A stretch of DNA of 64,000 nt from a virus (lineage: Duplodnaviria; Heunggongvirae; Uroviricota; Caudoviricetes): the IMG/VR virus record IMGVR_UViG_2778261540_000003; one strand, given 5' to 3'. Below the pieces are notes generated by a model. That model was not told the origin of the DNA, ran no database searches, and was given only the letters and a program-made list of their open reading frames with translations. Position 1 is the first letter of the stretch, and each line of letters opens with the position of its first letter. Positions 13,841 to 31,084 of this stretch are shown here, in pieces. The position numbers and the translations under genes were made by a program.

Positions 13841-13841
13841 T

Positions 13842-13858
13842 ATTGCTCTAATAATTCC
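13842..13858 (+). promoter_or_regulatory. C1 repressor operator
   Basis: ATTGCTCTAATAATTCC; approximate coordinates. Confidence 0.6.
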
Positions 13859-13866
13859 ATATTTTT

Positions 13867-13897
13867 AAAACGTGATGTACACTCATCACGTTTTTTA
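13867..13897. terminator. Hairpin terminator bracketed by two inverted C1 operators
   Basis: stem acgtgatg / catcacgt, 6-nt loop, followed by T6. Confidence 0.55.
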
Positions 13898-13907
13898 TTA
13901 GAGCAAT
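13891..13907 (-). promoter_or_regulatory. C1 repressor operator (inverted orientation)
   Basis: reverse complement ATTGCTCTAATAAAAAA. Confidence 0.55.
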
Positions 13908-14141
13908 CTACAAGGTGCACTATGTGGCCATTCCGACGGAAATATCACTACTGGCTGATCGCCTTTGTTACGCCGACCGGCGGTATCAGGCATGTCATCA
14001 CCAGGTATCGCAACAAGAGACTCACCTTAGCCAGAATTTTACAGGCTGCCATAGGTGAGGGACTGGATACAAATTGCGTAGTCCTTCCTCCTTCATACTT
14101 AGGAAAAATGACCGAAGCACAAGCTAATACGGAACTTTGAA

Positions 14142-15404
14142 ATGAGCACTTCAGCACAAAACCAATCAATCGAAAATGTATCTATCCCTGATGTCCTGAA
14201 TGCCGGTATCCCGGCCATTATCCAGAACATCCGGGCCGCGCAACGCCGCGTTAGTTGTGATGACCTCACAGCACGTTTTTTTGATAATGCGGTTCAGTCA
14301 GCGGAGATGCTTCACGCACAGCTTATTGATGTTTATAACGCAGAAGCTGATAGCCATAACTCCCTGGTAGATGCAGCTGAAAATATGCAGTTGGATCTCG
14401 GTCTGAAGGGTAAAGAAATTGAAGAGCTTCAGCTGCAAATTGAACATTTGAAACGCCAGCAACAGGACGCGATCGACGATGCGACGCATGACGCCAACCA
14501 GCGTGCTGATAATGCCGAACGTATAAGCATTGAGCTGGAAACAAAACTCAATGAAATGACCGCGATGGTTGAACTGCGGAACTCACAGATTTCAACGCTA
14601 AAATCTCAATATAAAGAGATCATGAAACTTGATCCTTTTAACCTTGAGAAACGCTATAACAAAGCTAAAAGCGAGCGACAGGAACTGCGTAAGCAGGTCG
14701 CCGACCTTAACCAACAGCTCAAAAAAACTATTAAAGATGCAAGCGAAGCGCGCGTGGCATTTGCTAATAAAAAAGCAGAGGTTACCGCGCTGGTTAATGA
14801 GAATGCCAAATTTGCGACGCTCAAGAAGGAAATGTATGGCATTACTGAGCGCCGTTTCCCTGCAAGCAAACTTCATCCGACGTTAGGGCAAATCTCCTTC
14901 TTCCCGCGCCTCCTGGCTTATGGGATCTCATCGCCTAAAGAGTTCAATAACGAGCGTCCTTATATCGTTTCTAAGCTGGACTTTGCTTATCAGTTCTGCT
15001 GCGACATGGGCTATGCCATTGATATCCGAATCAACGAATGGTTGATGCCAAACTTCCAGCCGCTGGCCATTTTCCGCGAGTTCCAGCCGGAAGGTTGGGT
15101 AGAGTTCTTCCATGAATTGATCTGTAAAGAGATGGAAAGCCGCCGCCCGGAACTGGTCCGCCGTGTCGAGTGGGCGCAAGAGGTTATGTTGGCAGATGCA
15201 GAGCTGCCGTTCGAACCGGAATTTATTGATGATCTGGCAACTAAAGGGCTGCATACCCTGTTTGATGTGGTTACCCGCCGTCATGAGCAGTTGGTTGTCG
15301 AATTGGGTTTAGAGGAAACAGCGGCAAGAAGACTTCTCGATGTTTGCTATGCACGTAGCGATGCATGGGAAAAAGAGAACGGCGGCACTATTTACGTTCG
15401 CTGA
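14142..15404 (+). CDS. Hypothetical protein with N-terminal coiled coil
   Basis: 420-aa ORF preceded by operators and terminator. Confidence 0.6.
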   Translation: MSTSAQNQSIENVSIPDVLNAGIPAIIQNIRAAQRRVSCDDLTARFFDNAVQSAEMLHAQLIDVYNAEADSHNSLVDAAENMQLDLGLKGKEIEELQLQIEHLKRQQQDAIDDATHDANQRADNAERISIELETKLNEMTAMVELRNSQISTLKSQYKEIMKLDPFNLEKRYNKAKSERQELRKQVADLNQQLKKTIKDASEARVAFANKKAEVTALVNENAKFATLKKEMYGITERRFPASKLHPTLGQISFFPRLLAYGISSPKEFNNERPYIVSKLDFAYQFCCDMGYAIDIRINEWLMPNFQPLAIFREFQPEGWVEFFHELICKEMESRRPELVRRVEWAQEVMLADAELPFEPEFIDDLATKGLHTLFDVVTRRHEQLVVELGLEETAARRLLDVCYARSDAWEKENGGTIYVR

Positions 15405-15476
15405 CAGTTACAGTGTCACTTTTAATGCTGGTGGAGTGCGCCCACCAGCATTTTTTTCGTCCAATGAGGAGGGCAT

Positions 15477-15983
15477 TTGAGTATTTTCAATAAACACGCA
15501 CACCAGGAACGTCCGTATATCGTCATAGTTGATATTGATGGAACAATATCAGAGGCAACTGAAGACAGACTGCATTTGCTTCCGCCACCAGGTAAAGGTG
15601 CATTAACAAAGGACTGGAACGAGTTTAATCTCGCCTGTGACACCGATACTCCCATCACTCCAGTTATTGATATGGTGCGCCAGTTATTTAACGTTTACAC
15701 GGTCTGGTTTGTAACCGGGCGCTGTGAGATCGCAAGGGATAAAACACTAGCCTGGCTGCGGAAGTACGTAACAAACGGGGCTGAGCCTTTGCTATCTATG
15801 CGTCCTGCCACCGATGACAGAAATGACGGCCCAGCAAAGATTGATCTCCTTAAGAAAATTGGTCTAAGTAAAATCGCGTTCGCGCTGGAAGATAAGATTG
15901 AAGTGGCGCGTGTTTTCAGGAGGCACGGCGTGCTTACGTTAATGGTCAGGGAGTATGAAAACGCGCTTCTCCATCAACAATGA
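15477..15983 (+). CDS. HAD-superfamily phosphatase-like protein
   Basis: 168 aa; DxDGT-type motif VDIDGTI near N-terminus. Confidence 0.55.
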   Translation: MSIFNKHAHQERPYIVIVDIDGTISEATEDRLHLLPPPGKGALTKDWNEFNLACDTDTPITPVIDMVRQLFNVYTVWFVTGRCEIARDKTLAWLRKYVTNGAEPLLSMRPATDDRNDGPAKIDLLKKIGLSKIAFALEDKIEVARVFRRHGVLTLMVREYENALLHQQ

Positions 15984-15999
15984 TTGCTCTAATAAATAT
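15983..15999 (+). promoter_or_regulatory. C1 repressor operator
   Basis: ATTGCTCTAATAAATAT overlapping the stop codon of the preceding gene. Confidence 0.6.
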
Positions 16000-16177
16000 T
16001 GATTTTTAAAACAGAGAAAGTGAAAATAAAAACATGCCGCAAGGCGCGGCATGTATCCAATCAATCACAGGAGCTGAAAATATGAACACGGCATTCAAAA
16101 TCATTATGGCCGCGATCTATTTCTGGCTGTTCTCTATCACTTTTGGCGGCATCGTCGCACATGGGTAAGGGGGATGC

Positions 16178-16759
16178 ATGAAAGGCGAAGTGAAAGAGCG
16201 CGGCATGATTTTTAACGATGAGATGGTCCGGGCAATTCTTGGCGGGAATAAAACACAGACTCGCAGGATTGTTGAAGAAAAATTCTATGGACGGGCAGTG
16301 GCCGCAGAGTTGCTTGCCAAGCATTGTCCATATGGTCAACCGGGCGATCGTATTTGGGTTCGCGAAACCTACCGGGTACATGGCAAAGCGACGGACGTCG
16401 CAACGCTGGTTTATCGCGCAAGCGTGCGTAACTCCTGGACAGAACAAACGCACCGGGTTCCGGTCGAGGTTTGTAATAAACCAGTATCAGAAAAGTGGAC
16501 GCCATCAATTCACATGCCGCGCTGGGCATCGCGCATTCTTCTGGAAATTACCAACGTGCGCGTTGAGCGGTTGAACGATATCAGCGAATGCGATGCAAGG
16601 GCTGAGGGCGCACCAACAGAATCGACCCTCATTGGCGATAAGCATTACCCAGGTTTCCGTAGCCTATGGAAATCAATTTATGGCGAAGATAGTTGGAACG
16701 CTAATCCTTGGGTGTGGGTAATAGAGTTTGAGCGTATTCAGGGGGCAACCAGTGAGTGA
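16178..16759 (+). CDS. ASCH/PUA-like domain protein (tentative)
   Basis: 193 aa; N-terminal FNDEMVRAILGGNKTQTRR pattern. Confidence 0.5.
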   Translation: MKGEVKERGMIFNDEMVRAILGGNKTQTRRIVEEKFYGRAVAAELLAKHCPYGQPGDRIWVRETYRVHGKATDVATLVYRASVRNSWTEQTHRVPVEVCNKPVSEKWTPSIHMPRWASRILLEITNVRVERLNDISECDARAEGAPTESTLIGDKHYPGFRSLWKSIYGEDSWNANPWVWVIEFERIQGATSE

Positions 16760-17012
16760 GTCAAAATGCCAAATTAATGGCAACAAGATAGAACCGTGCG
16801 CGGCGTTGGCACAATCCCTGGAGCATGACGCTGAATACACGACGCGAAAAGGTCTGCTGAAATACAAAATCTATAACCATGAATTAATTCATTCACAAGA
16901 CCTGATCATGCTGCGGTCTGGTGAATTTTCTAAATCGCCTATTCGAGTTTCATTTTGCCCGTTCTGTGGTGAAAGTCTGAAAACGTGGGAAGCGGAGGCA
17001 ACCAGTGAATAA
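16728..17012 (+). CDS. Small Cys-containing protein (possible zinc ribbon)
   Basis: C-x10-C and CPFC motifs; probable start at in-frame GTG near 16752. Confidence 0.35.
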   Translation: MSVFRGQPVSESKCQINGNKIEPCAALAQSLEHDAEYTTRKGLLKYKIYNHELIHSQDLIMLRSGEFSKSPIRVSFCPFCGESLKTWEAEATSE

Positions 17013-17649
17013 CCGCTTTTACATGATGTGCTTGCGTGAAACTGTGGGTAATAACGCCTCATTCCATTGCCATAACGGCAATGGTTACAGTTCTGATATC
17101 GATCGCGCTCATGTTTACACGCTGGAAGAAGCCCAAAAAGCCTGGAATTGTGGACGAGATATCGATCAGCCTGTTTGCGCTGATAGCGTGGATGCAATGG
17201 CTGTGTGGCACGTTGATTGCCAGTACATCCCCACAGAAAGCCTGATTGAGTCAGATTGCACTGCGTATGTGGCCTACAAAAAAGGTAGCTGGAACGGCAA
17301 CGATGTTTACTGGCTTCAACACGGTGGATTGCCAACAGATGACTTCAGTAAAGCGACCATCTTTAGCGTCGCCAACAAAAACGAACCAGGAATAGTTTGG
17401 TTGCCATTTTCCATTGCTGATGCAGCAAAGCGTCGGACGTTCAATATCAATAACTTTAACCGCAGAACAATGGTTCAGGGCGCAGGTTTGGTCATGCCTG
17501 ACTGGTTGAAAGAGCAGAACAGAAGAAAGAAGTCGCGAAGCGGGAAGGTGCGTTGGAATTGTCCGCATTGCGGAAAAATAACCTGGCAGTACAGCCCATA
17601 TGATTTTGAAGGCTGTAGTGATTACAACTGTGAAGGATGGCGAGAATGA
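17005..17649 (+). CDS. Hypothetical protein with C-terminal CPHCG..C..C cluster
   Basis: 214-aa ORF. Confidence 0.55.
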   Translation: MNNRFYMMCLRETVGNNASFHCHNGNGYSSDIDRAHVYTLEEAQKAWNCGRDIDQPVCADSVDAMAVWHVDCQYIPTESLIESDCTAYVAYKKGSWNGNDVYWLQHGGLPTDDFSKATIFSVANKNEPGIVWLPFSIADAAKRRTFNINNFNRRTMVQGAGLVMPDWLKEQNRRKKSRSGKVRWNCPHCGKITWQYSPYDFEGCSDYNCEGWRE

Positions 17650-18395
17650 CAATTGACTATCAGGCACTGCGTGAGGCGGCAGAGCGTGCAATTCCGGCAA
17701 TGGAACACCTGTTAATGTTGCCAGTTGATGATGATTTGTTAACTGAACAGGAACTTAAGGATTACGGTGTGGATATTGATGCGCTCAACGCCTTCAAATT
17801 TCTGACCGGACCAGAAACCGTGCTGGCACTACTGGATGAACGGGAAAGAAACCAGCAATACATAAAATGCCGCGACCAGGAGAACGAGGATATTGCGCTA
17901 ACGGTAGGGAAGCTGAGAGTTGAGCTTGAGGAAGTAAAACAACACGCTGAAGAATTATCCGAAACCAAGGCTGTTCGTAACCAATGGCGGCCAGATATTT
18001 GCCCAATAACCGGACGTGCATTTTTCATGTGGATTGAGCATCCAACATTGGGAAATGTGCCGACATATGGTGGCCCATTAGATAGTTACACCATTCCAAC
18101 AAAGGACGGTGACGGTGAGTTTTCATGTGAGCGTTACGATCATGATTTTGGCGGTTGGGTAGAAAGCGAATGTCTTGGGTTATATCTGATTGATGATAGA
18201 GAACAATGCAGGGTCTACGAACTGGAGGAACGCGTTAAGGAACTGGATGCTCGGGAAATATCGCTCCCGGAACGTAGCAGCATGCTTCATCGAACAGATT
18301 TTCACGATGATTACCAAACGGTAATGGCATACAAAGTTTCTGAAGTCATCGATGCAATCCGCGCCGCAGGCATTCGCATCAAAGGAGGTGAGTAA
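17637..18395 (+). CDS. Hypothetical protein
   Basis: 252-aa ORF, start overlaps previous stop. Confidence 0.6.
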   Translation: MARMTIDYQALREAAERAIPAMEHLLMLPVDDDLLTEQELKDYGVDIDALNAFKFLTGPETVLALLDERERNQQYIKCRDQENEDIALTVGKLRVELEEVKQHAEELSETKAVRNQWRPDICPITGRAFFMWIEHPTLGNVPTYGGPLDSYTIPTKDGDGEFSCERYDHDFGGWVESECLGLYLIDDREQCRVYELEERVKELDAREISLPERSSMLHRTDFHDDYQTVMAYKVSEVIDAIRAAGIRIKGGE

Positions 18396-18571
18396 TGCGT
18401 GTGGCATGTATCGGCTTGTTACCGTACCCGACTCGTTTTTGGGCTTCTGCGCTAATTGCAAAGCCGTATGTCCTGATGGCTGACAACATCATCCCGGCAC
18501 CAAAGCGCCGCCATACCGGTATTGCAGCGGCACGACGAGCAGCAAAGAGACGCAGGAGAGCAAAGCGATGA
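18395..18571 (+). CDS. Small basic protein (58 aa), first of three tandem small basic ORFs
   Basis: hand translation MRVACIGLL..RRAAKRRRRAKR; start overlaps previous stop (TAATG); below ORF-track size cutoff. Confidence 0.3.
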   Translation: MRVACIGLLPYPTRFWASALIAKPYVLMADNIIPAPKRRHTGIAAARRAAKRRRRAKR

Positions 18572-18744
18572 AAAACCGTAAGGCAAAACGACTTTTTTTA
18601 CAGCGACCTGTGCGTGTGGTGGAGCTGGTTATTAGCAACCATAAGATAGCGGTACTCCATCCATTTGGTCAGGTGGCTTTTGCCGCAAAGCGTAAGCCTA
18701 CTGCGTCACAGAACAGGCGGAAGAAAGGGTACGCTGTAAGATGA
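18568..18744 (+). CDS. Small basic protein (58 aa), paralog of the next ORF
   Basis: begins MKNRKAK like 18741 ORF; stop overlaps next start (ATGA). Confidence 0.35.
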   Translation: MKNRKAKRLFLQRPVRVVELVISNHKIAVLHPFGQVAFAAKRKPTASQNRRKKGYAVR

Positions 18745-18929
18745 AAAACCGTAAAGCAAAGATTCTGTTAGTTCGTAGAAACGCTCCTGGCGTCTGGCAG
18801 TGGGTGAGACTCAGCAACCGACGGATGGGGTTGATGAAATATTACGGGATGATGGATTGTGGTTTTTGCAAAAAGCCCAGCGCGGCGCAAAACCGCTGGA
18901 AAAACCACTTGCGCACTAAAGGAGAGTGA
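18741..18929 (+). CDS. Small basic protein (62 aa)
   Basis: begins MKNRKAKILLVRR; CGFC motif. Confidence 0.4.
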   Translation: MKNRKAKILLVRRNAPGVWQWVRLSNRRMGLMKYYGMMDCGFCKKPSAAQNRWKNHLRTKGE

Positions 18930-18930
18930 T

Positions 18931-19140
18931 ATGGCTATCGCTGCAAGTTACACCATGCATCTCTATTGTGATTGCCTCCAGTGTACAGATGGCAAATATA
19001 AGTCGCCAGACTTCGGTGAGTATATAGGTACGTCATGGGCTGGCTGTGCAAAAGAGGCGCGCAAGGATGGCTGGCGAATAAGCAAAGACAAAACGCGTGC
19101 TTTTGCGCCCGGGCATAAAGTTTTGAGGATTAACAAATGA
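18931..19140 (+). CDS. Small Cys-rich protein
   Basis: ATG preceded by aaaggagag RBS; CDCLQC..C motif; ORF track gives longer 18859 start. Confidence 0.4.
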   Translation: MAIAASYTMHLYCDCLQCTDGKYKSPDFGEYIGTSWAGCAKEARKDGWRISKDKTRAFAPGHKVLRINK

Positions 19141-20333
19141 CCACTATAACCAAAGAGCGACTGCTGACAATCAAGCAGTGGCGCGAAACATACGGACCGG
19201 GTAGCAACGTTGTACTGCCAGCAGAAGAAGCGGAAGAACTGGCACGGATTGCTCTGGCATCGCTGGAAGCAAAACCAATAGGTGCATTCCACATTGCAGA
19301 ACAGCAAGTTGACGGCACAAGTGACTACCTCAAGGATGGAGAATGGCCTATTGATAATGGAATTATTGAGGTCTACGCCGCTCCCCCCGTTCCAGTAGTA
19401 CCGGAAGAAAAACCAATGCCTAATCCTCTTAGCATGTACGCGGTTGATGCTGTTGCCGCTATTGCAGAGGTGAGAGGCTGGAACGCCTGCCGCGCCGCCA
19501 TGCTTCAGTCCGGAAACTTTCGGGAAAATAAGAATTCGTCAACCAATAATTTTCGGGAAATCGCGGAAACGTCAACCAACTATCCGGTAATTCCTAGTGA
19601 AGTGTTGTCCGCAATCCTGAAGGTTGCCAAGATTCGTGCCGATTTCGATGATTTTGACGGTGACAGGCGAGGTATCGGTGATTGTCTGGATGAGGCTGAG
19701 CAAGAGCTTATCGTTACCATTAACAAATATGCCAGTCAGTTGGCAGCAGAACCGATAGCGACTAATGACGTTCGAGAGCAAACAGCCGTTCCGCCAGTTC
19801 CTGTAATACAGGCTGATGTCGCGCAGGCAATTGAAAAACTCAAACGGAAATTAGTGGAATGCAATCGCTATAACTACTGCGCAGATGCAGTTAAGGGCGT
19901 TGAGTATGCCTGCCACGCTGCCATGCTTCAGGGTAGCCAACCTGTAAGCCAAACTTACAAGTTTCCAGTTAATACACCTTGCCAGGATGCGCCAGCCCAT
20001 ATCTGGCTGCAAACAGCTGGAGTATGGCCAGAAGATGGCGAGTTAAGCGAATTAACGTGGTGCAGCCACAATCAGCACCATGATGACACGCTATATGTTC
20101 GAGCTGACTTGGTAAATGGCAATTCTCAGGTAACTCCGGATGGTTGGATAAGCTGTAGTGAGCGAATGCCCGCTCAAGATGATTGGATTTTAATTTATTC
20201 AAAGCACGGTGAGTATATGGCAGGACAGGTGCAAGGGGAATACGTGGAGTTGAGCGACGGCACTTTATCCTGGTTAGGGAACGCCTTGTTCTGGATGCTG
20301 CTACCAGAACCTCCCCAGGAGGCAGGTCAATGA
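19137..20333 (+). CDS. Hypothetical protein with internal tandem repeat (NFRE..STN x2)
   Basis: 398-aa ORF; DNA-level direct repeat near 19500-19575. Confidence 0.6.
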   Translation: MTTITKERLLTIKQWRETYGPGSNVVLPAEEAEELARIALASLEAKPIGAFHIAEQQVDGTSDYLKDGEWPIDNGIIEVYAAPPVPVVPEEKPMPNPLSMYAVDAVAAIAEVRGWNACRAAMLQSGNFRENKNSSTNNFREIAETSTNYPVIPSEVLSAILKVAKIRADFDDFDGDRRGIGDCLDEAEQELIVTINKYASQLAAEPIATNDVREQTAVPPVPVIQADVAQAIEKLKRKLVECNRYNYCADAVKGVEYACHAAMLQGSQPVSQTYKFPVNTPCQDAPAHIWLQTAGVWPEDGELSELTWCSHNQHHDDTLYVRADLVNGNSQVTPDGWISCSERMPAQDDWILIYSKHGEYMAGQVQGEYVELSDGTLSWLGNALFWMLLPEPPQEAGQ

Positions 20334-20397
20334 GCTGGCCTGAAGCATTCGCAACGGTAGGAATTGTGATGGCGGCAGCACTGGGTTTGTATTCAAT

Positions 20398-20649
20398 TTG
20401 TCGCTGGTGGTAACGATGGGGAAATTAACTTTTGTAGTCGAATTTGAGGATGGTAAAGAGCCACCTGTTAGCGCCAATCTTGATGTTGCTGGTGGAAGGA
20501 TTGTTTCGGTTCTATTTGGTGACTACCGAGATGACTTCTTCCAACCAGAAGAAGTTGATGTGGTGCGAGAGGCATTAAACGAGTTAAGTGTTGACAACGA
20601 TGATGCTCATGCGGAAATCATCCAAAAAATGGAACTGCTAACTCACTAA
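20398..20649 (+). CDS. Hypothetical small acidic protein
   Basis: 83-aa ORF. Confidence 0.45.
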   Translation: MSLVVTMGKLTFVVEFEDGKEPPVSANLDVAGGRIVSVLFGDYRDDFFQPEEVDVVREALNELSVDNDDAHAEIIQKMELLTH

Positions 20650-20731
20650 ATTATCAATTATGGTGCTATAACCTACGACACCGAGAGAAAATTTATAATG
20701 TCAAAAGTAAATGTTTTGATTTTTTCAGCAA

Positions 20732-21121
20732 TTGTTGGCTTTGGTTTTACTGCCGGAGTGCAGATTTATATTACGTGGGAAAAAATCATCAACTACGCAT
20801 GGAGTTGTTTTATTAAGTGAGGTAAGTATGTGGAGAGGTAATAATCATGGCAAAAGCCAGATGATACTTACCGAATATAAGCTAGACCACAAAACCAATA
20901 AATCACGCTCAGTATATTTGCTCCGGCACAATAGTCGCGTAAGAAATACCGTGCTGGAACAAAATCTGACAGTTGAAATGGATAATTACGGGGGATTCAA
21001 GCCAACAATTTCACTTGATGATTTTCCTCGTGGTTTAAGCGAAAGAGAAGCAATGCTGAAATTAGCAGAATGGCTACAAAGATTAAGCATTGCTATTGAA
21101 GATAACTGGTCTGAACCTTAA
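20732..21121 (+). CDS. Hypothetical protein in AT-rich islet (likely true start near 20827, MWRGNNHG)
   Basis: ORF in markedly AT-rich DNA; preceded by a 40-codon hydrophobic micro-ORF near 20699..20821. Confidence 0.4.
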   Translation: MLALVLLPECRFILRGKKSSTTHGVVLLSEVSMWRGNNHGKSQMILTEYKLDHKTNKSRSVYLLRHNSRVRNTVLEQNLTVEMDNYGGFKPTISLDDFPRGLSEREAMLKLAEWLQRLSIAIEDNWSEP

Positions 21122-21127
21122 ATTTAT

Positions 21128-21502
21128 ATGATGACACTAAAACATTTTCTTGACCGCCCATTATGGGCGGCAGCCGCAGGCTATGACTTTAATTATATGG
21201 ATTGCATGTCTTATACTGCCAATGCATACGACCATTCGTTCAGCCTGCTGTTTAATTCTTTAAGAATATTGCCGGAAACAGAAGTTGGAGAGCTTCATTT
21301 ATGGCTATTGGGCTTTATCGCGGCTGTCGTTGGTATTGCTGTATGGCCTTTTATTTTCTGGCTGGTGGCTGTTGTAGTGTGGTTTAAGTGCAAGGCATAC
21401 CGGAAAAAGTATTTCTTAGGTGATGGAATGACTGATATTGCCAAAATGAACATTGAAAAATGGACTAAGGAATGTGAAAAGAAATGGCGCAAAAAGAAAT
21501 GA
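21128..21502 (+). CDS. Membrane protein
   Basis: 124 aa with hydrophobic segment LWLLGFIAAVVGIAVWPFIFWLVAVVVWF. Confidence 0.5.
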   Translation: MMTLKHFLDRPLWAAAAGYDFNYMDCMSYTANAYDHSFSLLFNSLRILPETEVGELHLWLLGFIAAVVGIAVWPFIFWLVAVVVWFKCKAYRKKYFLGDGMTDIAKMNIEKWTKECEKKWRKKK

Positions 21503-22257
21503 CAAGAATCACTAAAGAACGCATATCAGAGATTATCGCCCGTATCGAAATGTATGGTCACGGTGCTGGATATACGGCAGATGAAGTATTGGCACTTGCC
21601 CAAATGGCTTTGGCGGCTTGCAAAGATGATAAAAAAATGAAGCTTATCGACTTGTTAGTGAAGGAGCTGCCCAAGTGCGGCGGGTGGCCTGATGGTATGA
21701 TCGATTGTCGCCTGCTCAGTGCCAATTTAATGGCGCCATGCGCGACTTTTGCTTTTGGCTCGGACCACAAAAAAGACACTTTCTTTGGGCGCAATTTTTG
21801 TTGTGAGATTGAGCTTCCAATCGGTGACCTTGATAGCGATGAATACCAGTCAGTTGTCACTCGCGAACAATACGAAGCTGCTCTCATAGCGTCGCAGAAA
21901 GTCGAGTTCAATGGTGATGAACCTGAAAGTAAGGCTTACAAGTTAGATTTTGAGCAATGGCTGGAACAGCAACGCGGGAAAATCGATGTGGACTGCGGTT
22001 GTGTGTCTGCGGAAACATTCATGCACTGGTTGCGGGTAGCTTATGTGGCTGGCAACCATCCGGATTTTCCGGATAGTTCCCAACAATCGCCCAAGAAAAG
22101 CGTAAAAACCACTCTGGAAAGAGGCTATCTTGAGGCCGCATTAAAGATTAAGCCGGGCCATACGCTAGGCGTCATTGATGCCATGTTGGTTCATGAAATG
22201 GCGAAGGCTTTATTGCCGCTGGTGGCTGATAAAATTCCGAATAAGGCCGATATCTGA
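21484..22257 (+). CDS. Hypothetical protein
   Basis: 257-aa ORF. Confidence 0.6.
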   Translation: MAQKEMTRITKERISEIIARIEMYGHGAGYTADEVLALAQMALAACKDDKKMKLIDLLVKELPKCGGWPDGMIDCRLLSANLMAPCATFAFGSDHKKDTFFGRNFCCEIELPIGDLDSDEYQSVVTREQYEAALIASQKVEFNGDEPESKAYKLDFEQWLEQQRGKIDVDCGCVSAETFMHWLRVAYVAGNHPDFPDSSQQSPKKSVKTTLERGYLEAALKIKPGHTLGVIDAMLVHEMAKALLPLVADKIPNKADI

Positions 22258-22296
22258 TCACCATGCTAAAATCCCCTCAATTCACAGAGGGGATTT

Positions 22297-22569
22297 TTGT
22301 ATATGTTGCATAGAGTTTTATGGAAAAGCGTTATTGTCGGCGCGATACTGGCTATATCTGGGTGTGCAATGGTGCAATACAACGACGGTGAAAAGGTAAG
22401 CATACAGTCAGATGGTTGGTATGGCCTGGATAGCCTGCAAAAAACCGCAGATAAAGCCTGTCAGCAATATGGGAAGTCTAAAGCAGTATATCAGCATAGC
22501 GCGAACGCTAACCCTAATCTTGCGCCCGGTTCGGGTGTTCAGAATACCATCTGGAAATGTGAGCCTTAA
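22297..22569 (+). CDS. Small lipoprotein
   Basis: signal peptide with lipobox ISGC. Confidence 0.5.
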
Positions 22570-22571
22570 AT

Positions 22572-22811
22572 ATGAGCGACTGGAATATTGCAGCTAAAAG
22601 TCAGGAAGAACGGGATAAGGTTAACGTTGATCTGGCTGCCAGCGGTGTGGCGTACAAAGAGCGATTGAACATACCTGTCATAGCTGAACAGGTAGCCCGC
22701 GAGCAACCAGAGAATCTGCGCACCTATTTCATGGAACGGTTACGGCACTATCGGCAGTTAAGCCTCCAGTTGCCAAAAGGGAACGATCCGGCATATCAGA
22801 AAACAGAATAG
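22572..22811 (+). CDS. hot: Homolog of DNA polymerase III theta subunit (P1 Hot)
   Basis: 79 aa; [43 protein letters not shown] closely parallels E. coli HolE. Confidence 0.85.
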
Positions 22812-22822
22812 TTGTTAGGCTA

Positions 22823-23185
22823 TTACGCAATGCCCGCGCCATTCTTAGCGGGTTTTAAGCCATATTCACCGTTGTAGAAATTACTCATGTTCCATTCATT
22901 GGGAAGCTCTTTTCTGTCCAATGTATAGTGGCGCACGATATAACGATCTTCATCTTCTTCGATGGACAGGCGGACATAGCCAATGTGAATTACCGATACG
23001 GGCGGTGTTCGTATTGCATAGATGTCGCGAAGATATACCGGTAGCTCGACAAATGCATCAGGTGCATCTGTGATGCTCGTTTTTTCACAGTATTCATATA
23101 ACGCATCGTTGATATCGTTAAGAGATTCATGATCGTATATTTCCAGGTAATTACCGCGATCGCGATGGTACTCGATTTTAGCCAT
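22823..23185 (-). CDS. Hypothetical protein
   Basis: 120-aa ORF. Confidence 0.5.
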   Translation of the reverse strand: MAKIEYHRDRGNYLEIYDHESLNDINDALYEYCEKTSITDAPDAFVELPVYLRDIYAIRTPPVSVIHIGYVRLSIEEDEDRYIVRHYTLDRKELPNEWNMSNFYNGEYGLKPAKNGAGIA

Positions 23186-23770
23186 TCAAAATCCCCTGTT
23201 ATCGTTTTGCATTTCTCTAATCCGGTTCAGAACTACTTCATGCTGGACTTGGATAGCGGCTTTTTCGTTTTCAAGCCGGGCAATAGACATCTCTAATTCT
23301 TTGCTGTACCAGGCGAGCTGGGCCAGGTTCATCCGGTTGTGGTCGAGAGTTGGAGACACTTCGACGCGATCCCTTTCTTCCTGCTTTAATGAGAAGAGAT
23401 TTATCTCATCCCTTGAGGAAAATTCAGCAACAATTTCTTGTTGATGATCCGGTCGCTGCGGCATCCTCGCCAGTATAAATGGCGGTTCTTTTGAAAACAT
23501 GAATGTCGGTTCAGACCGTGTTTTTACCCAGCTTGCCTGCTGTCTTTCGGCAAGTTCACAGGCTTCATCATAGTTATCTGCCAAACAAAGCACGGATGGA
23601 CGGTCCCACGCCCCACCATTCAGACAATAAACTACAATTTTCCCGTCAGGTTGTGTAACCCCATATGGATGGTCCCACCAGGCGTCCAGCTGAGCTTTAG
23701 AGCGTTTCTCGTTAGGAGTGCAGTCAAAATTTTTGGGCAATACAGGATCGAGAGGAATGCGGGCAGGCAT
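23186..23770 (-). CDS. Hypothetical protein, divergent from humD across a LexA box
   Basis: 194-aa ORF. Confidence 0.55.
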   Translation of the reverse strand: MPARIPLDPVLPKNFDCTPNEKRSKAQLDAWWDHPYGVTQPDGKIVVYCLNGGAWDRPSVLCLADNYDEACELAERQQASWVKTRSEPTFMFSKEPPFILARMPQRPDHQQEIVAEFSSRDEINLFSLKQEERDRVEVSPTLDHNRMNLAQLAWYSKELEMSIARLENEKAAIQVQHEVVLNRIREMQNDNRGF

Positions 23771-23907
23771 AGCTAATTCCTTATTAACTGATTGGCAACG
23801 AGGTTACGCTGATCCGTTGGTGATGAATAGTAGCAAAGAGCACAAAATCATCAGCGGTGGTTGATGTACGTAACGCGTTTGCACCAAAGGTGTCTCTTTA
23901 ATGTATA

Positions 23908-23923
23908 CTGTATAAATGAACAG
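23908..23923. promoter_or_regulatory. LexA (SOS) box
   Basis: CTGTATAAATGAACAG = CTGT-N8-ACAG, about 20 nt upstream of humD start. Confidence 0.75.
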
Positions 23924-23944
23924 TATTATTGAGGTGAAAACGCT

Positions 23945-24334
23945 ATGGGCTTCCCTTCTCCTGCGGCGGATTATGTTGAAAGCCGAATTTCTCTTGATCA
24001 GCAACTAATCAGGCATCCATCAGCAACCTACTTCATGCGGGCAGCTGATAGCCATCACCGTGAGGGAATATTGCAGGGTGCTTTGCTGGTGGTTGATTCC
24101 TCGCTTACTCCGGTTGATGGTTCTCTGCTTGTGTGCGCTATGGAGGGTGAATATCGCATAAAGAGATACAGGAAGTATCCGCGCCAGCACCTGGAGGATT
24201 TAAGCACCGGGAAGAAAGAGGCGTTACCAGTAGATGACGATGGATACACGGGCAGTAATGCTGTTTTTGGTGTGATCACTCATGTCATCAATGATGCCAG
24301 AAGTGGGGAGTTTGATGATTGTCCGGTTATTTAA
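23945..24334 (+). CDS. humD: UmuD-prime-like SOS mutagenesis protein (P1 HumD)
   Basis: 129 aa, recognised as P1 HumD; LexA box upstream. Confidence 0.9.
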   Translation: MGFPSPAADYVESRISLDQQLIRHPSATYFMRAADSHHREGILQGALLVVDSSLTPVDGSLLVCAMEGEYRIKRYRKYPRQHLEDLSTGKKEALPVDDDGYTGSNAVFGVITHVINDARSGEFDDCPVI

Positions 24335-24400
24335 GCTGCAAAGGGCTGGTGCTTTATGCCTGTGAAGTTTATAATTGTGTACACATAACGAGTACACGAG

Positions 24401-24628
24401 GTGTTTATGCAATCCATTAACTTCCGTACCGCGCGTGGCAACCTTTCTGAAGTGCTCAACAATGTTGAAGCCGGGGAAGAGGTTGAAATCACCCGCAGAG
24501 GCCGTGAGCCAGCAGTAATTGTCAGCAAGGCTACTTTCGAAGCCTACAAAAAAGCGGCGCTGGATGCTGAATTTGCATCCCTGTTTGACACCCTGGACTC
24601 CACCAACAAGGAACTGGTTAACCGATAA
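24401..24628 (+). CDS. phd: Antitoxin Phd (prevent host death)
   Basis: 73 aa [39 protein letters not shown]..., recognised as P1 Phd. Confidence 0.95.
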
Positions 24629-25008
24629 TGAGGCATATATCACCGGAAGAACTTATTGCGCTTCATGATGCGAATATAAGCCGCTACGGCGGCCTGCCGG
24701 GAATGTCTGATCCGGGTAGGGCAGAGGCCATTATCGGGAGAGTTCAGGCCAGAGTTGCCTACGAAGAGATCACCGACCTTTTCGAAGTCTCTGCCACCTA
24801 CCTGGTGGCTACAGCGAGAGGGCATATATTCAATGATGCCAATAAGCGTACCGCGCTAAACAGTGCGCTGCTATTTCTACGCCGTAACGGGGTGCAGGTA
24901 TTTGATTCACCTGAACTGGCAGACCTTACCGTAGGCGCTGCGACTGGCGAGATATCTGTATCTTCTGTCGCCGACACGTTACGTAGATTGTATGGTTCTG
25001 CGGAGTAG
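24628..25008 (+). CDS. doc: Toxin Doc (death on curing), Fic-fold kinase
   Basis: 126 aa, recognised as P1 Doc; start overlaps phd stop. Confidence 0.95.
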
Positions 25009-25219
25009 ATTAATGGCACGCAAATACAACAAGTTGTCCCGTGAAGCGTTAAAGATGCTTCTTGATGGCGTGAGTCGCCGCAAGGTAAAGCAATACCTGG
25101 TTGGTAAGCAAATTGGTGCCAGGACAGCTATTGCTGTGTTATGCCGTCAGGAAATGGTTGTGCTTAAACAGAGAATGCCGGGCAGCAGATAAAGCCCAAT
25201 CAGTGATTAAAGGTGTGAT

Positions 25220-26263
25220 GTGAAAGCCGTAATTACTCCATTTGTACAGAAAGAGCTTGGCCTCGCCACGTTCAAAGTGGATCAGGAGGTCAGAAAGCTG
25301 GTGGAGGCTGGCCGTAAATTTATTATGGAGCCGGTGCCGCGTGAGTTAATCGAGCACATGGAAGACGGCCTCGTTGTTACCGAGCAAACCATGGCAACAA
25401 ATGAGGCGTTGCAGCCGTTTTTTAACAGCGATGAACTGTTTCGCCGTATTGGTGGAATTGACGCGCTGGTGGCGTGGTTGCGTAGGAAAGAGGGTCAATG
25501 CCAGGCCGCAGATCGTAGTTGGTGTGACAACCATATTGTCCACGCTGAACGAGACAATAGCGCGGTGTTGTTGTGCTGGCATCACGATAACCATTACCGG
25601 ATGCGTGGTTTTAATGAGCTGAAAGAAACGCTGCACAATAATCGCGTTAACTGGATACTGGATGTCGCCCGTCAGGAAATGGGCCTTTCAAATAGCCATG
25701 ATTTAAGTATTCAGGAGCTGTGCTGGTGGGCTTTCATGCGCAACATGATGCACCTGATGCCGGAAGAAGTCTGCCGCATATCAATAAATAAGATGAAGGC
25801 TACTCCGCAGGATAGCGGACCTCTGAAAGAGGCGGATATTCGCCCGTATGACGATCGCGCTACAGCATATGTTCAGATGATGGAAGAACGCGCCGCGCCG
25901 ATGCGTGCAAAAGTATGCCCTGTGGATGTTGACTCCGACCCTGGCATGGCGCATTTCAAAATACCAAAACTGCAATCGCTAAAATTACCTGAGTACATGG
26001 ACTTTGTTGCTTCCCGTCCATGCTGTGGGTGTGGAGCTGCGGGAGCTGGCGCTCACATTACGCCTTATATCGTTCGTCATAGTCGATTATGCGCGCATGA
26101 CATTTACGCAATTCCTCTGTGCCAGTCATGCCAGCGTGATATTGAGCGTGACCGCGATAATTGGGAGAAGACGCACGGTAGGTTGGCGATGCATCAACGA
26201 TTGTTCTTTGATTACGCGCTTGGAGTGGGCGTTATCACAAGTCATTCGTCGAGTGTTAGATAA
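25220..26263 (+). CDS. Hypothetical Cys-rich protein (position of P1 pdcB)
   Basis: 347-aa ORF downstream of doc; CCGCG and CQSC motifs. Confidence 0.6.
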
Positions 26264-26264
26264 A

Positions 26265-26281
26265 ATTGCTCTAATGTATTG
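26265..26281 (+). promoter_or_regulatory. C1 repressor operator upstream of lpa
   Basis: ATTGCTCTAATGTATTG. Confidence 0.6.
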
Positions 26282-26351
26282 CTATTTCTTTAATCGAGGG
26301 TATTATATTCCACGTTGATTAGTTGACATGGGCTAATCAGTAGGTGACAGG

Positions 26352-26804
26352 ATGTTACTTAACTGGCAGGGACGCCACTTCATGGAAATAAATCACTCAC
26401 GAATAACATCGTACGAGATTGCGGATTACATGATCCGCACTAAATCTCTTCTATCAGCGAAAGAACTCGCAGCAATTCTTGAAAAGGAATACCCGCATCT
26501 GGATGTCGATAAGCGCGATGTTTATCTGCGCTTAAAGGCTATCGCTGTGTCTAAGTATTCGTCTGTTTTGATAGATGACAGTACACGCCCACGTAGATTT
26601 CAGATCCACTCTCTGAATCCTGAATTCTTTCGCCGTAGCCGCGCTCCGCGCCGGTTTGATGAAAAACTCCAGAACGAACTCTATATGACGCAGGACGAAA
26701 AGGAACGCCGGGAGCACCAGCCTTGGGTAATGGCGCGTCAACTTTTCAATAAGGTGGCCCGTCAGCACCGTCATTACGGTAATGCCACATCCGCACGTAT
26801 CTGA
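26352..26804 (+). CDS. lpa: Late promoter activator (P1 Lpa, gene 10) candidate
   Basis: 150-aa ORF between doc region and pacA, preceded by a C1 operator as expected for lpa; assigned by position and size. Confidence 0.65.
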   Translation: MLLNWQGRHFMEINHSRITSYEIADYMIRTKSLLSAKELAAILEKEYPHLDVDKRDVYLRLKAIAVSKYSSVLIDDSTRPRRFQIHSLNPEFFRRSRAPRRFDEKLQNELYMTQDEKERREHQPWVMARQLFNKVARQHRHYGNATSARI

Positions 26805-26889
26805 TTGATTGCTTGCCCGTTCCGGGCCTTTTGACATGTGACTTTCGTTACCCTCGCGTCAAAAAGAGTTTTTACGAAAGGAAGCATAA

Positions 26890-28083
26890 GTGACCTGGGA
26901 CGATCACAAGAAGAATTTTGCTCGCCTGGCGCGAGATGGTGGTTACACCATCGCACAGTATGCCGCCGAGTTTAATCTTAACCCTAATACCGCACGTCGT
27001 TATCTCCGTGCCTTCAAAGAAGACACCAGGACTACGGACAGCCGCAAGCCAAATAAGCCAGTCAGGAAGCCACTAAAAAGCATGATCATTGATCACTCTA
27101 ATGATCAACATGCAGGTGATCACATTTCGGCTGAAATAGCGGAAAAACAAAGAGTTAATGCCGTTGTCAGTGCCGCAGTCGAGAATGCGAAGCGCCAAAA
27201 TAAGCGCATAAATGATCGTTCAGATGATCATGACGTGATCACCCGCGCCCACCGGACCTTACGTGATCGCCTGGAACGCGACACCCTGGATGATGATGGT
27301 GAACGCTTTGAATTCGAAGCTGGCGATTACCTGATAGATAACGTTGAAGCGCGGAAGGCCGCGCGCGCTATGTTGCGTCGGTCCGGGGCCGATGTTCTGG
27401 AAACCACTCTTCTGGAAAAGTCTCTTTCTCATCTCCTTATGCTGGAGAACGCCAGGGATACGTGTATTCGCCTAGTGCAGGAAATGCGCGATCAGCAAAA
27501 AGACGATGATGAAGGTACTCCGCCTGAATACCGTATCGCGAGCATGCTAAACAGCTGTTCCGCGCAGATAAGCAGCCTGATCAACACCATTTACAGCATC
27601 CGGAATAACTATCGAAAAGAAAGCCGGGAGGCGGAAAAGCACGCTTTATCTATGGGGCAAGCTGGCATTGTTAAGCTGGCATACGAACGAAAGCGTGAAA
27701 ATAACTGGTCAGTGCTGGAAGCGGCTGAATTCATCGAGGCGCATGGAGGAAAAGTGCCTCCCCTGATGCTGGAGCAAATCAAAGCCGATCTGCGTGCTCC
27801 TAAGACCAATACCGATGATGAGGAAAACCAAACAGCATCTGGCGCTCCATCACTTGAAGATCTGGATAAAATCGCGCGAGAACGGGCCGCCAGCCGCCGC
27901 GCTGATGCCGCATTGTGGATTGAGCATCGTAGAGAAGAAATTGCCGATATCGTCGATACAGGTGGTTATGGTGATGTCGATGCGGAAGGCATATCAAACG
28001 AAGCATGGCTTGAACAGGATCTGGACGAAGACGAGGAGGAAGACGAAGAAGTTACCCGCAAACTGTACGGGGATGATGATTAA
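26890..28083 (+). CDS. pacA: Terminase small subunit PacA
   Basis: 397 aa, GTG start; contains the pac site; acidic C-terminus. Confidence 0.88.
27083..27241 (+). other. pac packaging site: 4 + 3 hexamer repeats TGATCA/G containing Dam GATC sites
   Basis: TGATCA at about 27083, 27090, 27102, 27117 and TGATCG/TGATCA at about 27213, 27225, 27236. Confidence 0.85.
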
Positions 28084-29567: not shown

Positions 29568-29591
29568 CTCATTAACCATGCCGGATAGAAA

Positions 29592-30443: not shown

Positions 30444-30537
30444 TGATCCTCCTCCAGAATTGACATGGCCAACAACTCACAGCGGATTACACTGGGAGTT
30501 GTTGGCCACCATTATAGAAGGATCCAACGAAAATAAT

Positions 30538-31018: not shown

Positions 31019-31084
31019 TGTCAAACAACAATGAAAAACAATCCAGTTTTTGGCTGGTGGAGTGGGATTTTTCTCTCAAAATTT

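What the first reader, a model, noticed from the sequence alone, without database searches (positions are those of the whole stretch)
20650..21130. AT-rich islet with a 40-codon hydrophobic micro-ORF and a small orphan protein
This roughly 480-bp stretch is clearly more AT-rich than its surroundings. It contains a short ORF encoding an all-hydrophobic peptide (MSKVNVLIFSAIVGFGFTAGVQIYITWEKIINYAWSCFIK, approximately 20699..20821) followed by a 98-aa protein, then a membrane protein gene at 21128. Small hydrophobic peptides in foreign-looking islets are typical of type I toxins, superinfection-exclusion peptides, or moron genes.
Basis: seen in the sequence. Interest (0 to 1): 0.45.

Follow-up and report, generated by a model that had tools for sequence, protein, structure and literature searches.

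The report
Small membrane-protein gene in AT-rich phage cassette
The AT-rich stretch is a real, horizontally acquired five-gene accessory cassette in a known variable region of a P1-like phage-plasmid, and its 40-codon ORF is a genuine but already catalogued small membrane-protein gene of unknown function that sits inside an operon and lacks the features of a type I toxin-antitoxin locus.

Summary
Window 20650-21130 has 36.2% GC against 48.6% for the window, which puts it in the lowest 1% of windows. The low-GC block really spans about 20400-21500.

The window is an SJ46-type P1-like phage-plasmid. The block is a fixed five-gene cassette: a 27-aa hydrophobic ORF, a 77-aa gene, the 40-aa micro-ORF, a 97-aa gene and a 124-aa membrane protein. 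It lies in the known low-GC "variable region 8" (pmgT-hot). About a third of P1-like plasmids carry it; P1 itself does not.

The micro-ORF (20698..20820) matches phrog_5525. Its 40-aa homologues (45-58% identity) in Uetakevirus phages and in Klebsiella and Pseudescherichia genomes have strong ribosome-binding sites and stop/start overlap with an upstream gene (DUF551/Eaa-like in most). Deep dN/dS is 0.1-0.4, so it is a real single-pass membrane protein gene. Within P1-like elements, however, its variation looks neutral (5 synonymous : 19 nonsynonymous).

I found no antisense RNA, no Rfam match, no significant RNA structure and no promoter or terminator of its own. It lies 4.7 kb downstream of the P1 Op88-type C1 operator. 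The type I toxin reading is therefore unsupported, and "moron-like accessory cargo" is only partly supported. The 97-aa protein is not an orphan: it belongs to the N15 gp44 / phiKO2 gp43 family. Function remains unknown and interest is low.

The parts
15983..15999 (+). C1 repressor operator (ATTGCTCTAATAAATAT), at the position of P1 OpmgT/Op88. It marks the head of the operon that contains the cassette.
   Evidence: One mismatch to the operator consensus. The surrounding 140 nt are 98% identical to the P1 pap-OpmgT-PpmgT region.
20330..20413 (+). 27-aa hydrophobic micro-ORF (MSWPEAFATVGIVMAAALGLYSICRWW). Its start overlaps the stop codon of the 398-aa DUF551 gene. It is the first gene of the conserved cassette.
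   Evidence: present in all SJ46-type loci that extend far enough upstream, in two allelic classes (27 aa and 24 aa). Weak, sub-threshold Pfam DUF7512 hit.
20416..20649 (+). 77-aa soluble protein gene (phrog_3876), function unknown.
   Evidence: E 1.9e-52. It always lies 282 nt upstream of the micro-ORF start. Strong purifying selection, pN/pS 0.07.
20650..20697 (+). 48-nt AT-rich intergenic spacer (31% GC) with a weak ribosome-binding site (GAGAG). It contains an extended -10-like TGCTATAAC that is not conserved.
   Evidence: The variant L096 replaces the -10-like element.
20698..20820 (+). 40-aa single-pass membrane protein gene (phrog_5525): MSKVNVLIFSAIVGFGFTAGVQIYITWEKIINYAWSCFIK. It has an invariant G14-x-G16-xxx-G20 motif and an amphipathic C-terminal tail. 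Its TGA stop overlaps the ribosome-binding site of the next gene.
20828..21121 (+). 97-aa soluble protein gene (phrog_1258), a homologue of N15 gp44 and phiKO2 Gp43. The predicted fold is a four-stranded antiparallel sheet plus a long C-terminal helix.
21128..21502 (+). 124-aa membrane protein gene (phrog_2638) with one long hydrophobic helix (about residues 57-86) and a basic C-terminal helix.
   Evidence: The Pfam Cpta_toxin hit is sub-threshold (13.3 bits against a 27.3-bit cutoff).
22268..22297 (+). First terminator-like hairpin on the + strand downstream of the operon head (11-bp stem, then a T-rich tail). It is the likely end of the transcription unit.
   Evidence: No + strand terminator-like site was found between 15900 and 22167; a weaker 6-pair site lies at 22168..22182, about 100 nt before this hairpin.

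Best explanation
**What it is.** The AT-rich stretch is a horizontally acquired five-gene accessory cassette spanning 20330-21502. The genes, in order, are a 27-aa peptide, a 77-aa protein, the 40-aa peptide, a 97-aa protein and a 124-aa membrane protein. The cassette sits in the pmgT-hot variable region of an SJ46-type P1-like phage-plasmid.

**The micro-ORF.** It is a genuine protein-coding gene of a small, Enterobacterales-phage-restricted family (phrog_5525). It encodes a 40-residue bitopic inner-membrane protein.

**Expression.**
- Shown: gene order; co-directional orientation; a conserved C1 operator at the operon head; no intervening terminator; the micro-ORF stop codon overlaps the ribosome-binding site of the 97-aa gene.
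- Inferred: the micro-ORF is transcribed as part of the long operon that starts at the Op88-type operator at 15983. That would make it repressed in the lysogen and expressed on derepression. It is not an autonomous unit.

**Mechanism (inferred, and only guessed).** The peptide inserts into the inner membrane. It then acts through helix-helix packing of its invariant G16xxxG20 face, either by self-association or by binding a host or phage membrane protein. That would make it a host-modulating or exclusion-type accessory factor of the early programme, as known small membrane proteins are.

**What it is not.** It is not a type I toxin-antitoxin locus. In P1-like elements the gene appears to be under little current constraint.
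For: **Identity of the element.** The window is 100% identical to E. coli plasmid pLH85-a-A and about 96% identical to phage SJ46.

**Variable region.** The region corresponds to the published 'variable region 8' (pmgT...hot, humD) of P1-like phage-plasmids. That paper also states that the variable regions are low in G+C (PMC9603915).

**Composition.** The cassette is a compositional outlier. Homologous genes elsewhere have ordinary composition:
- N15 gp44 has 50.5% GC and phiKO2 gp43 49.7%.
- Micro-ORF homologues have 48-50% GC.

**Distribution.**
- The block has a fixed order in about 70 loci.
- It occurs in 225 plasmids, against about 655 that carry lpa.
- RCS47 and several P1 variants carry only the 97/124-aa pair, with a breakpoint exactly at 20822.

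**Coding evidence for the micro-ORF.**
- Full-length phrog_5525 match, E 1.2e-24.
- It is annotated in SJ46 as J46_0090.
- 40-aa homologues at 45-58% amino-acid and 55-60% nucleotide identity occur in Uetakevirus phages, Klebsiella grimontii and Pseudescherichia vulneris.
- 17 columns are invariant, including G14, G16 and G20.
- Synonymous sites are saturated, and dN/dS is 0.12-0.39 between clades.
- Nearly all of about 90 copies are intact at 40 aa.
- The homologues have an AGGAGG or GGAGGG ribosome-binding site and an overlap between the upstream stop and their own start.

**Operon context.**
- The C1 operator and promoter region is 98% identical to P1 OpmgT.
- There is no + strand terminator-like site until 22168-22297; the 11-pair hairpin at 22268 is the convincing one.

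**Membrane character.** Maximum 19-residue hydropathy is 1.83. The tail has a hydrophobic moment of 1.33, against 0.16 for the TM segment.
Against: - No experimental evidence of translation, membrane insertion or phenotype exists.
- Within P1-like elements the micro-ORF's variation is indistinguishable from neutral: 5 synonymous and 19 nonsynonymous variant codons against a neutral expectation of 20% synonymous. This differs from its neighbours (Fisher p = 0.004).
- Occasional copies are disrupted: one start-codon loss, one frameshift, stop-loss extensions to 47 aa, and one recombinant fusion. In this lineage the gene may therefore be dispensable.
- Its ribosome-binding site here is weak (GAGAG) compared with the homologues.
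- The C1-controlled expression is inferred from P1 annotation, not measured. An internal promoter cannot be excluded.
- The proposed GxxxG-mediated interaction rests on motif conservation only.
Confidence: 0.65

Rival explanations
1. Type I toxin-antitoxin locus: the 40-aa peptide is a membrane-depolarising toxin whose translation is held in check by a cis-encoded antisense sRNA, and the locus stabilises the phage-plasmid.
For: The size and architecture fit the general description of type I toxins: under 60 aa, one TM helix and short extensions (PMC12648545). The element is a low-copy plasmid prophage, which benefits from addiction modules. One weak promoter-like site (9 of 12 matches) lies on the minus strand at 20853..20825 and points into the ORF.
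Against: - Promoter-like sites are not enriched over shuffled sequence (7 found, 7.8 expected), and the antisense site is not conserved in RCS47 or the L096 variant.
- There is no minus-strand terminator-like site nearer than 19745.
- Rfam gave no hit even at E <= 10.
- Neither strand folds better than shuffles (z +0.54 and -0.61).
- Synonymous sites are free to saturate between homologues, which argues against an overlapping functional RNA.
- The homologues have no 5' UTR at all: their start overlaps the stop of the upstream gene and follows a strong ribosome-binding site. That is the opposite of the sequestered ribosome-binding site typical of type I toxin mRNAs.
- The element already carries phd-doc.
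Confidence: 0.05
2. Superinfection-exclusion or other conflict factor under diversifying selection: the peptide sits in the inner membrane and blocks DNA entry of competing phages, or counteracts a membrane-associated defence. Its rapid amino-acid turnover in P1-like elements would then reflect an arms race.
For: - It is a membrane peptide in a variably present accessory cassette.
- Its nonsynonymous-to-synonymous ratio is about 1, while the flanking genes in the same loci show 0.07-0.31.
- One allele is 72% identical with a 3-codon insertion, although its flanks are 95-98% identical.
- The ORF nevertheless remains intact in over 95% of copies.
Against: - There is no similarity to any known exclusion or defence protein (PADLOC, Pfam and NCBIfam all negative).
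- The inferred C1-repressed operon context predicts no expression in the lysogen, which is when exclusion is needed.
- The variable positions include several that are invariant in the deep alignment (N5, L7, Y24, A34, S36). That fits relaxed constraint as well as it fits positive selection.
Confidence: 0.12
3. Decaying or non-functional ORF in this lineage: the family is real elsewhere, but in P1-like phage-plasmids the copy is a neutrally drifting passenger. At most it serves as a translated spacer that delivers ribosomes to the 97-aa gene.
For: - The within-clade substitution spectrum is neutral-looking.
- Its ribosome-binding site is weak compared with the homologues.
- Sporadic copies have lost the start codon, acquired a frameshift or lost the stop codon.
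- Its stop codon overlaps the GAGG ribosome-binding site of the next gene.
- RCS47-type elements keep the 97/124-aa pair without it.
Against: - The ORF is intact, at exactly 40 codons or 43 in one in-frame variant, in the great majority of about 90 sampled copies and 225 plasmids.
- The core motif GFGF.AG...W..IIN.W is unchanged in all P1-like alleles.
- PGAP omits the ORF in the 100%-identical plasmid pLH85-a-A, but SJ46 annotates it, so annotation gives no guide either way.
Confidence: 0.15

Closest known systems
phrog_5525 (PHROGs v4 family of 40-aa phage proteins, function unknown); SJ46 J46_0090
   Same: Full-length match, 1-40 of 40, E 1.2e-24. SJ46 J46_0090 is 97.5% identical and sits in the same position. 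The micro-ORF is a member of this family.
   Different: Nothing differs. The family has no assigned function, so membership explains nothing about mechanism.
Type I toxins of Enterobacteria (Hok/Gef, Ldr, TisB, IbsC, ShoB, DinQ, ZorO)
   Same: A small peptide with one TM helix, carried on a mobile element.
   Different: No sequence similarity, no antisense RNA, no structured leader, no autonomous transcription unit. The homologues are translationally coupled to the upstream gene.
Phage morons (autonomous accessory transcription units of atypical composition inserted between conserved phage genes; concept recalled from the lambdoid-phage literature, not re-read here)
   Same: Atypical (low) G+C, presence/absence polymorphism among close relatives, and mosaic breakpoints at gene boundaries.
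   Different: No flanking promoter/terminator pair. The cassette has the same orientation as, and is contiguous with, a long C1-controlled operon.
Regulatory small membrane proteins that bind larger membrane proteins (e.g. MgrB, AcrZ, MgtS, CydX; reviewed in PMC12648545)
   Same: Size, a single TM helix, and a conserved small-residue (GxxxG-type) face that suggests helix-helix packing.
   Different: No homology (best NCBIfam hit is CydH, E 0.15). No partner is known. The gene is phage-borne.
N15 gp44 / phiKO2 Gp43 family (phrog_1258), for the neighbouring 97-aa protein
   Same: 56-67% identity over the full length, the same length, and a location in accessory early/late-regulator operons of temperate phages.
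   Different: The copy here is AT-rich (38.8% GC against about 50%) and is paired with a membrane protein that the N15 and phiKO2 loci lack.

Membership tests
phrog_5525 small phage protein family | Full-length profile match at a significant E-value | tested here: met
   E 1.2e-24, residues 1-40 on profile positions 1-40 of 40.
phrog_5525 small phage protein family | Conserved length and motif in independent homologues, with purifying selection | tested here: met
   Homologues of 40 aa at 45-58% identity; 17 invariant columns; dN/dS 0.12-0.39 between clades.
Type I toxin-antitoxin system | Small hydrophobic toxin peptide with one TM helix | tested here: met
   40 aa, maximum 19-residue hydropathy 1.83. 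Toxicity itself was not tested.
Type I toxin-antitoxin system | Antisense (cis- or divergently encoded) antitoxin sRNA with its own promoter and terminator | tested here: not met
   Only one 9/12 promoter-like site, not above chance and not conserved. No nearby minus-strand terminator. Zero Rfam hits. Antisense fold z = -0.61. This is computational evidence only.
Type I toxin-antitoxin system | Autonomous toxin transcript with a structured leader that restrains translation | tested here: not met
   The upstream spacer is 48 nt. The sense fold has z = +0.54. The homologues have no leader, a strong ribosome-binding site, and a start that overlaps the upstream stop.
Type I toxin-antitoxin system | Growth arrest or membrane depolarisation on expression, neutralised by the RNA | not testable with these tools
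   Requires inducible expression in E. coli.
Phage moron | Present in some and absent in other closely related phages, at a fixed insertion point | tested here: met
   225 of about 655 P1-like plasmids carry it. It is absent in P1 and partly present in RCS47. Breakpoints lie at 20404, 20822, 21503 and 21602.
Phage moron | Nucleotide composition distinct from the surrounding genome | tested here: met
   GC 36% against 49%. GC3 is 0.34. Tetranucleotide distance is in the top 1.7%.
Phage moron | Own promoter and terminator, allowing expression from the repressed prophage | tested here: not met
   No terminator flanks the cassette. The only candidate promoter (TGCTATAAC in the spacer) is not conserved in the L096 allele. 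Transcript mapping would be decisive.
Superinfection-exclusion proteins | Homology to a known Sie/Imm/Cor/SieA-type protein or defence model | tested here: not met
   No Pfam, NCBIfam or PADLOC match.
Superinfection-exclusion proteins | Protection of the lysogen against incoming phage | not testable with these tools
   Needs plating assays.
CptA/YgfX membrane toxin (for the 124-aa neighbour) | Pfam PF07254 match above the gathering threshold | tested here: not met

The most novel reading that the evidence does not exclude
phrog_5525 peptides could be a previously unrecognised class of phage-encoded, GxxxG-bearing 40-residue membrane effectors. They typically follow DUF551/Eaa-type early genes. 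In P1-like phage-plasmids they would be evolving under diversifying selection because they take part in phage-phage or phage-host conflict at the inner membrane, for example exclusion or anti-defence. The unexplained 27-aa and 28-aa hydrophobic ORFs of the same operon might belong to the same toolkit.
Probability: 0.12. Interest if true: 0.5.

Novelty: new member of a known kind. Interest (0 to 1): 0.22.

Why it matters
- **Annotation.** The 40-codon ORF is a real gene family that NCBI's pipeline skips in the identical plasmid, so it should be annotated. The 97-aa 'orphan' should be linked to the N15 gp44 / phiKO2 gp43 family.
- **P1-like phage-plasmids.** These elements are important carriers of ESBL genes. 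The result shows that variable region 8 is filled with an exchangeable, low-GC, lambdoid 'ea-like' gene set that includes several tiny membrane peptides.
- **Type I toxin searches.** It is a caution that a small hydrophobic ORF in an AT-rich islet is not enough to call a type I toxin. Operon embedding and translational coupling in the homologues argue against that reading.
- **Limits.** No function is known and the gene may be under relaxed constraint, so the biological payoff is modest unless an exclusion or anti-defence role is demonstrated.

Tried and rejected
- **Type I toxin reading.** Rejected on the promoter/terminator scan, Rfam at E <= 10, folds of both strands, non-conservation of the antisense promoter-like site and the coupled architecture of the homologues.
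- **Internal promoter in the 48-nt spacer.** The extended -10-like TGCTATAAC is lost in the L096 allele. The spacer also does not resemble the P1 late-promoter -22 box read from P1 LPhot and LPpmgL.
- **Function by homology.** Pfam, NCBIfam, PADLOC and a PDB sequence search gave nothing above threshold for any of the five cassette proteins.
- **Function by fold.**
  - The 124-aa model (pLDDT 73.9) gave only generic helical matches.
  - The afdb50 library was unavailable.
- **Exhaustive HMMER search with the micro-ORF.** Only 8 hits among 1.84 billion representatives. All are close family members, or long and probably spurious matches (2134 aa and 349 aa, several matched stretches each).
- **Literature.** A full-text search for the peptide sequences returned no papers.
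- **Linkage between the micro-ORF and the 97/124-aa pair outside P1-like elements.** None found. The Uetakevirus, Klebsiella and Pseudescherichia loci lack the pair. N15-like loci that carry the 124-aa family have a different 79-80-aa upstream partner and no micro-ORF.
Full report
**What the window is.** The 1.4 kb around the finding is 100% identical to E. coli plasmid pLH85-a-A (NZ_CP100487). It is about 96% identical to Salmonella phage SJ46 and Escherichia phage vB_EcoM-813R1, both P1-like phage-plasmids (Punavirus). The locus lies between the pap-like gene and hot/humD/phd-doc. [quoted passage not shown] The same paper says the variable regions tend to have low G+C (PMC9603915).

**Checking the observation.**
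- GC of 20650-21130 is 36.2%. The window mean is 48.6% (sd 3.7% for windows of that size), and only 1% of windows are as low.
- The dip is wider than reported, about 20400-21500. GC3 is 0.34 for three of its genes, against 0.43-0.52 for the operon genes outside the cassette. The block's tetranucleotide profile is in the top 1.7% most deviant.
- The micro-ORF exists exactly as quoted, at 20698..20820.
- The next gene is 97 aa (20828..21121), and a 124-aa membrane-protein gene follows at 21128..21502.

**Anatomy and distribution.** tblastn of the window's proteins against about 90 related loci shows a block of fixed order and spacing in every SJ46-type locus. The block is a 27-aa hydrophobic ORF (20330..20413, whose start overlaps the stop of the 398-aa DUF551 gene), then the 77-aa gene, the 40-aa micro-ORF, the 97-aa gene and the 124-aa gene.
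- The flanking 398-aa and 257-aa genes vary widely between loci.
- BLAST breakpoints fall at gene boundaries: 20404, 20822, 21503 and 21602.
- RCS47 and some 'P1' variants carry only the 97/124-aa pair, with the junction exactly at 20822.
- In PLSDB, 225 plasmids carry the micro-ORF region, against about 655 that carry the conserved lpa gene. That is roughly one third.

Homologues of the same gene families in other phages have ordinary composition: N15 gp44 50.5% GC, phiKO2 gp43 49.7%, and micro-ORF homologues 48-50%. The AT-richness is therefore a property of this cassette lineage and not of the proteins. That is consistent with acquisition from a lower-GC background.

**Is the micro-ORF a gene?** Yes.
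- It matches phrog_5525 over its full length (E 1.2e-24) and is annotated in SJ46 as J46_0090. PGAP skips it in the identical plasmid.
- tblastn and pattern scans found 40-aa homologues at 45-58% identity in Uetakevirus phages (EC.W1-9, phiv142-3, Phi05_1387 B), a Klebsiella grimontii chromosome contig, Pseudescherichia vulneris and E. coli chromosomes.
- Nucleotide identity to these is only 55-60% and synonymous sites are saturated (pS about 0.7). Even so, length and 17 columns are invariant: M1 K3 N5 L7 G14 F15 G16 A19 G20 Y24 I25 W27 I31 N32 A34 W35 S36. Between-clade dN/dS is 0.12-0.39.
- In the homologues the ATG overlaps the stop codon of the upstream gene (an Eaa/Ea22/DUF551-type gene in most loci) and follows an AGGAGG or GGAGGG ribosome-binding site. 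The downstream gene overlaps the 3' end. This is classical translational coupling inside an operon.
- An exhaustive HMMER scan of 1.84 billion representative proteins found only 8 hits. The family is real but narrow, restricted to Enterobacterales phages.

**Predicted protein.** Residues 6-27 or so form one TM helix (maximum 19-residue hydropathy 1.83). It contains an invariant G14-x-G16-x-x-x-G20 small-residue face. A conserved W-E boundary follows, then an amphipathic C-terminal tail with hydrophobic moment 1.33, against 0.16 for the TM segment.

**A complication.** Within the P1-like elements the micro-ORF evolves differently from its neighbours.
- Among 13 alleles there are 5 synonymous and 19 nonsynonymous variant codons, which is exactly the neutral expectation.
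- The corresponding counts are 24:11 for the 77-aa gene, 27:25 for the 97-aa gene and 25:31 for the 124-aa gene (Fisher p = 0.004 against the pooled neighbours).
- One abundant allele (P0144, 43 aa) is only 72% identical to the window copy and has a 3-codon insertion, although its flanking genes are 95-98% identical. The upstream spacer has diverged as well.
- A few copies have lost the start codon, acquired a frameshift, lost the stop codon (47 aa) or become a recombinant fusion.

Nearly all of about 90 copies remain intact, and the GFGF.AG...W..IIN.W core never changes. This pattern fits either relaxed constraint or diversifying selection, and I cannot separate the two with these data.

**Expression context.**
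- A C1 operator (ATTGCTCTAATAAATAT) sits at 15983..15999, right after the pap-like gene. The 140 nt around it are 98% identical to P1's OpmgT (Op88) and predicted PpmgT promoters.
- All genes from 16083 to 22257 are on the + strand with tiny or negative gaps.
- There is no + strand terminator-like site until 22168-22297; the convincing one is the 11-pair hairpin at 22268..22297.
- Only two spacers longer than 40 nt exist in the operon. One is the 48 nt before the micro-ORF. Its TGCTATAAC (extended -10-like) is not conserved in the L096 allele and does not resemble P1 late promoters.

I therefore infer that the micro-ORF is transcribed with the C1-repressed operon, silent in the lysogen and on after derepression. 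Its TGA overlaps the GAGG ribosome-binding site of the 97-aa gene, which allows coupling. These are inferences from sequence and from P1 annotation, not measurements.

- *Type I toxin.*
  - The peptide has the right size and shape (PMC12648545).
  - The defining RNA antitoxin is not evident. Promoter-like sites are not enriched (7 found, 7.8 expected).
  - The single 9/12 antisense site at 20853..20825 is not conserved. The nearest minus-strand terminator-like site is at 19745.
  - Rfam returns nothing at E <= 10, and neither strand folds better than shuffles (z +0.54 and -0.61).
  - The coupled, leaderless arrangement of the homologues is the opposite of a type I toxin mRNA.
- *Moron.* Composition and presence/absence fit, but there is no promoter or terminator of its own.
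- *Superinfection exclusion.* There is no homology to known exclusion or defence proteins, and the predicted lack of expression in the lysogen argues against it. It is not excluded.

**The neighbours.**
- The 97-aa protein has 130 database clusters of homologues across Klebsiella, Salmonella, Citrobacter, Erwinia, Pantoea and Raoultella genomes and contigs, and in phages such as N15 (gp44), phiKO2 (Gp43), P22-like phages, mEp235 and HK225.
  - Its AF2 model (pLDDT 85.8) is a four-stranded antiparallel sheet followed by a long helix.
- The 124-aa protein (phrog_2638) has an N-terminal helical domain with conserved Cys and Trp residues, one long hydrophobic helix and a basic tail.
  - The Pfam Cpta_toxin hit is sub-threshold, and fold search is uninformative.
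  - Distant homologues of it sit in N15-like elements beside a different 79-80-aa partner and Dam.
- None of these neighbours co-occurs with the micro-ORF outside P1-like elements, so no functional linkage is implied.

**Verdict.** The feature is real but ordinary. It is a low-GC, horizontally exchanged accessory cassette in a known variable region of P1-like phage-plasmids. It contains a genuine, already catalogued 40-aa single-pass membrane protein gene of unknown function. The most likely mode of action is as a small membrane-inserted modulator acting through its GxxxG face after prophage derepression. That is an inference with modest confidence, and in this lineage the gene may be under little constraint. 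The type I toxin reading is not supported, the 'orphan' label is wrong, and the 'moron' label is only partly apt.

Noticed in passing
window 20330..20413 (+): A second hydrophobic micro-ORF (27 aa, MSWPEAFATVGIVMAAALGLYSICRWW). Its ATG overlaps the stop of the 398-aa DUF551 gene. It is conserved in all SJ46-type loci in two allelic classes (27 aa, and 24 aa ...AIVGVAMAIAAIFIFWG). It occupies the same position relative to a DUF551 gene as the phrog_5525 homologues do in Uetakeviruses. It is unannotated and has no PHROG match.
   Followed up: partly
window 16083..16169 (+), with hairpin 16032..16054: A third small hydrophobic ORF (28 aa, MNTAFKIIMAAIYFWLFSITFGGIVAHG) lies at the very head of the operon, just after the C1 operator, and has an AGGAG ribosome-binding site. 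A 10-bp GC-rich palindrome precedes it; read on the minus strand, the palindrome scores as a terminator with a T-run. The aligned part of the region (through the ORF's first codons) is 98% identical in P1, where no gene is annotated at that position. SJ46 calls a longer version 'membrane protein' (J46_0098).
   Followed up: partly
window 10218..52055 (13 sites): Thirteen matches (up to 3 mismatches) to the P1 C1 operator consensus ATTGCTCTAATAAATTT, against 0.3 expected by chance. The sites include 13842/13891 (a pair), 15983, 31002/31085 (a pair) and 52039. This confirms a P1-type immunity circuit across the window.
   Followed up: no
window ~30700-31500, 39270-40870, 61600-62200: Three other low-GC islands (GC <= 40% in 481-nt windows). 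The one around 39300-40900 is the most extreme in the window (minimum 31.4% GC, and the largest tetranucleotide deviation).
   Followed up: no
window 22268..22811: A strong terminator-like hairpin (22268..22297) is followed immediately by a 90-aa lipoprotein-like gene (22297..22569, signal peptide with an LSGC lipobox) and a 79-aa homologue of DNA polymerase III theta (hot, 22572..22811). A Klebsiella grimontii locus with a micro-ORF homologue also has a hot homologue about 440 nt downstream (L088).
   Followed up: partly
window 19137..20333 and 21484..22257: The 398-aa and 257-aa proteins that flank the cassette are modular. They share an N-terminal 'TKERL/I...' module (phrog_60, phrog_3323 and phrog_660 hit both) but have different middle and C-terminal modules (DUF551 in the 398-aa protein). 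They are the most variable genes among related loci (26-100% identity), which suggests domain shuffling in Ead/Ea22/DUF551-type proteins.
   Followed up: no
L093 / L095 (Logan contigs SRR10083323_2747 and SRR7774475_2228), 2765..3378: Distant homologues (51-57% identity) of the 124-aa membrane protein occur in elements that carry Q-antiterminator, RdgC, RNase_T, Dam and DinI genes. Each overlaps an upstream 79-80-aa basic protein that appears unrelated to the 97-aa gene (not formally compared). The gene there is also AT-poorer than here but still below its locus average (41% against 46.7% GC).
   Followed up: partly
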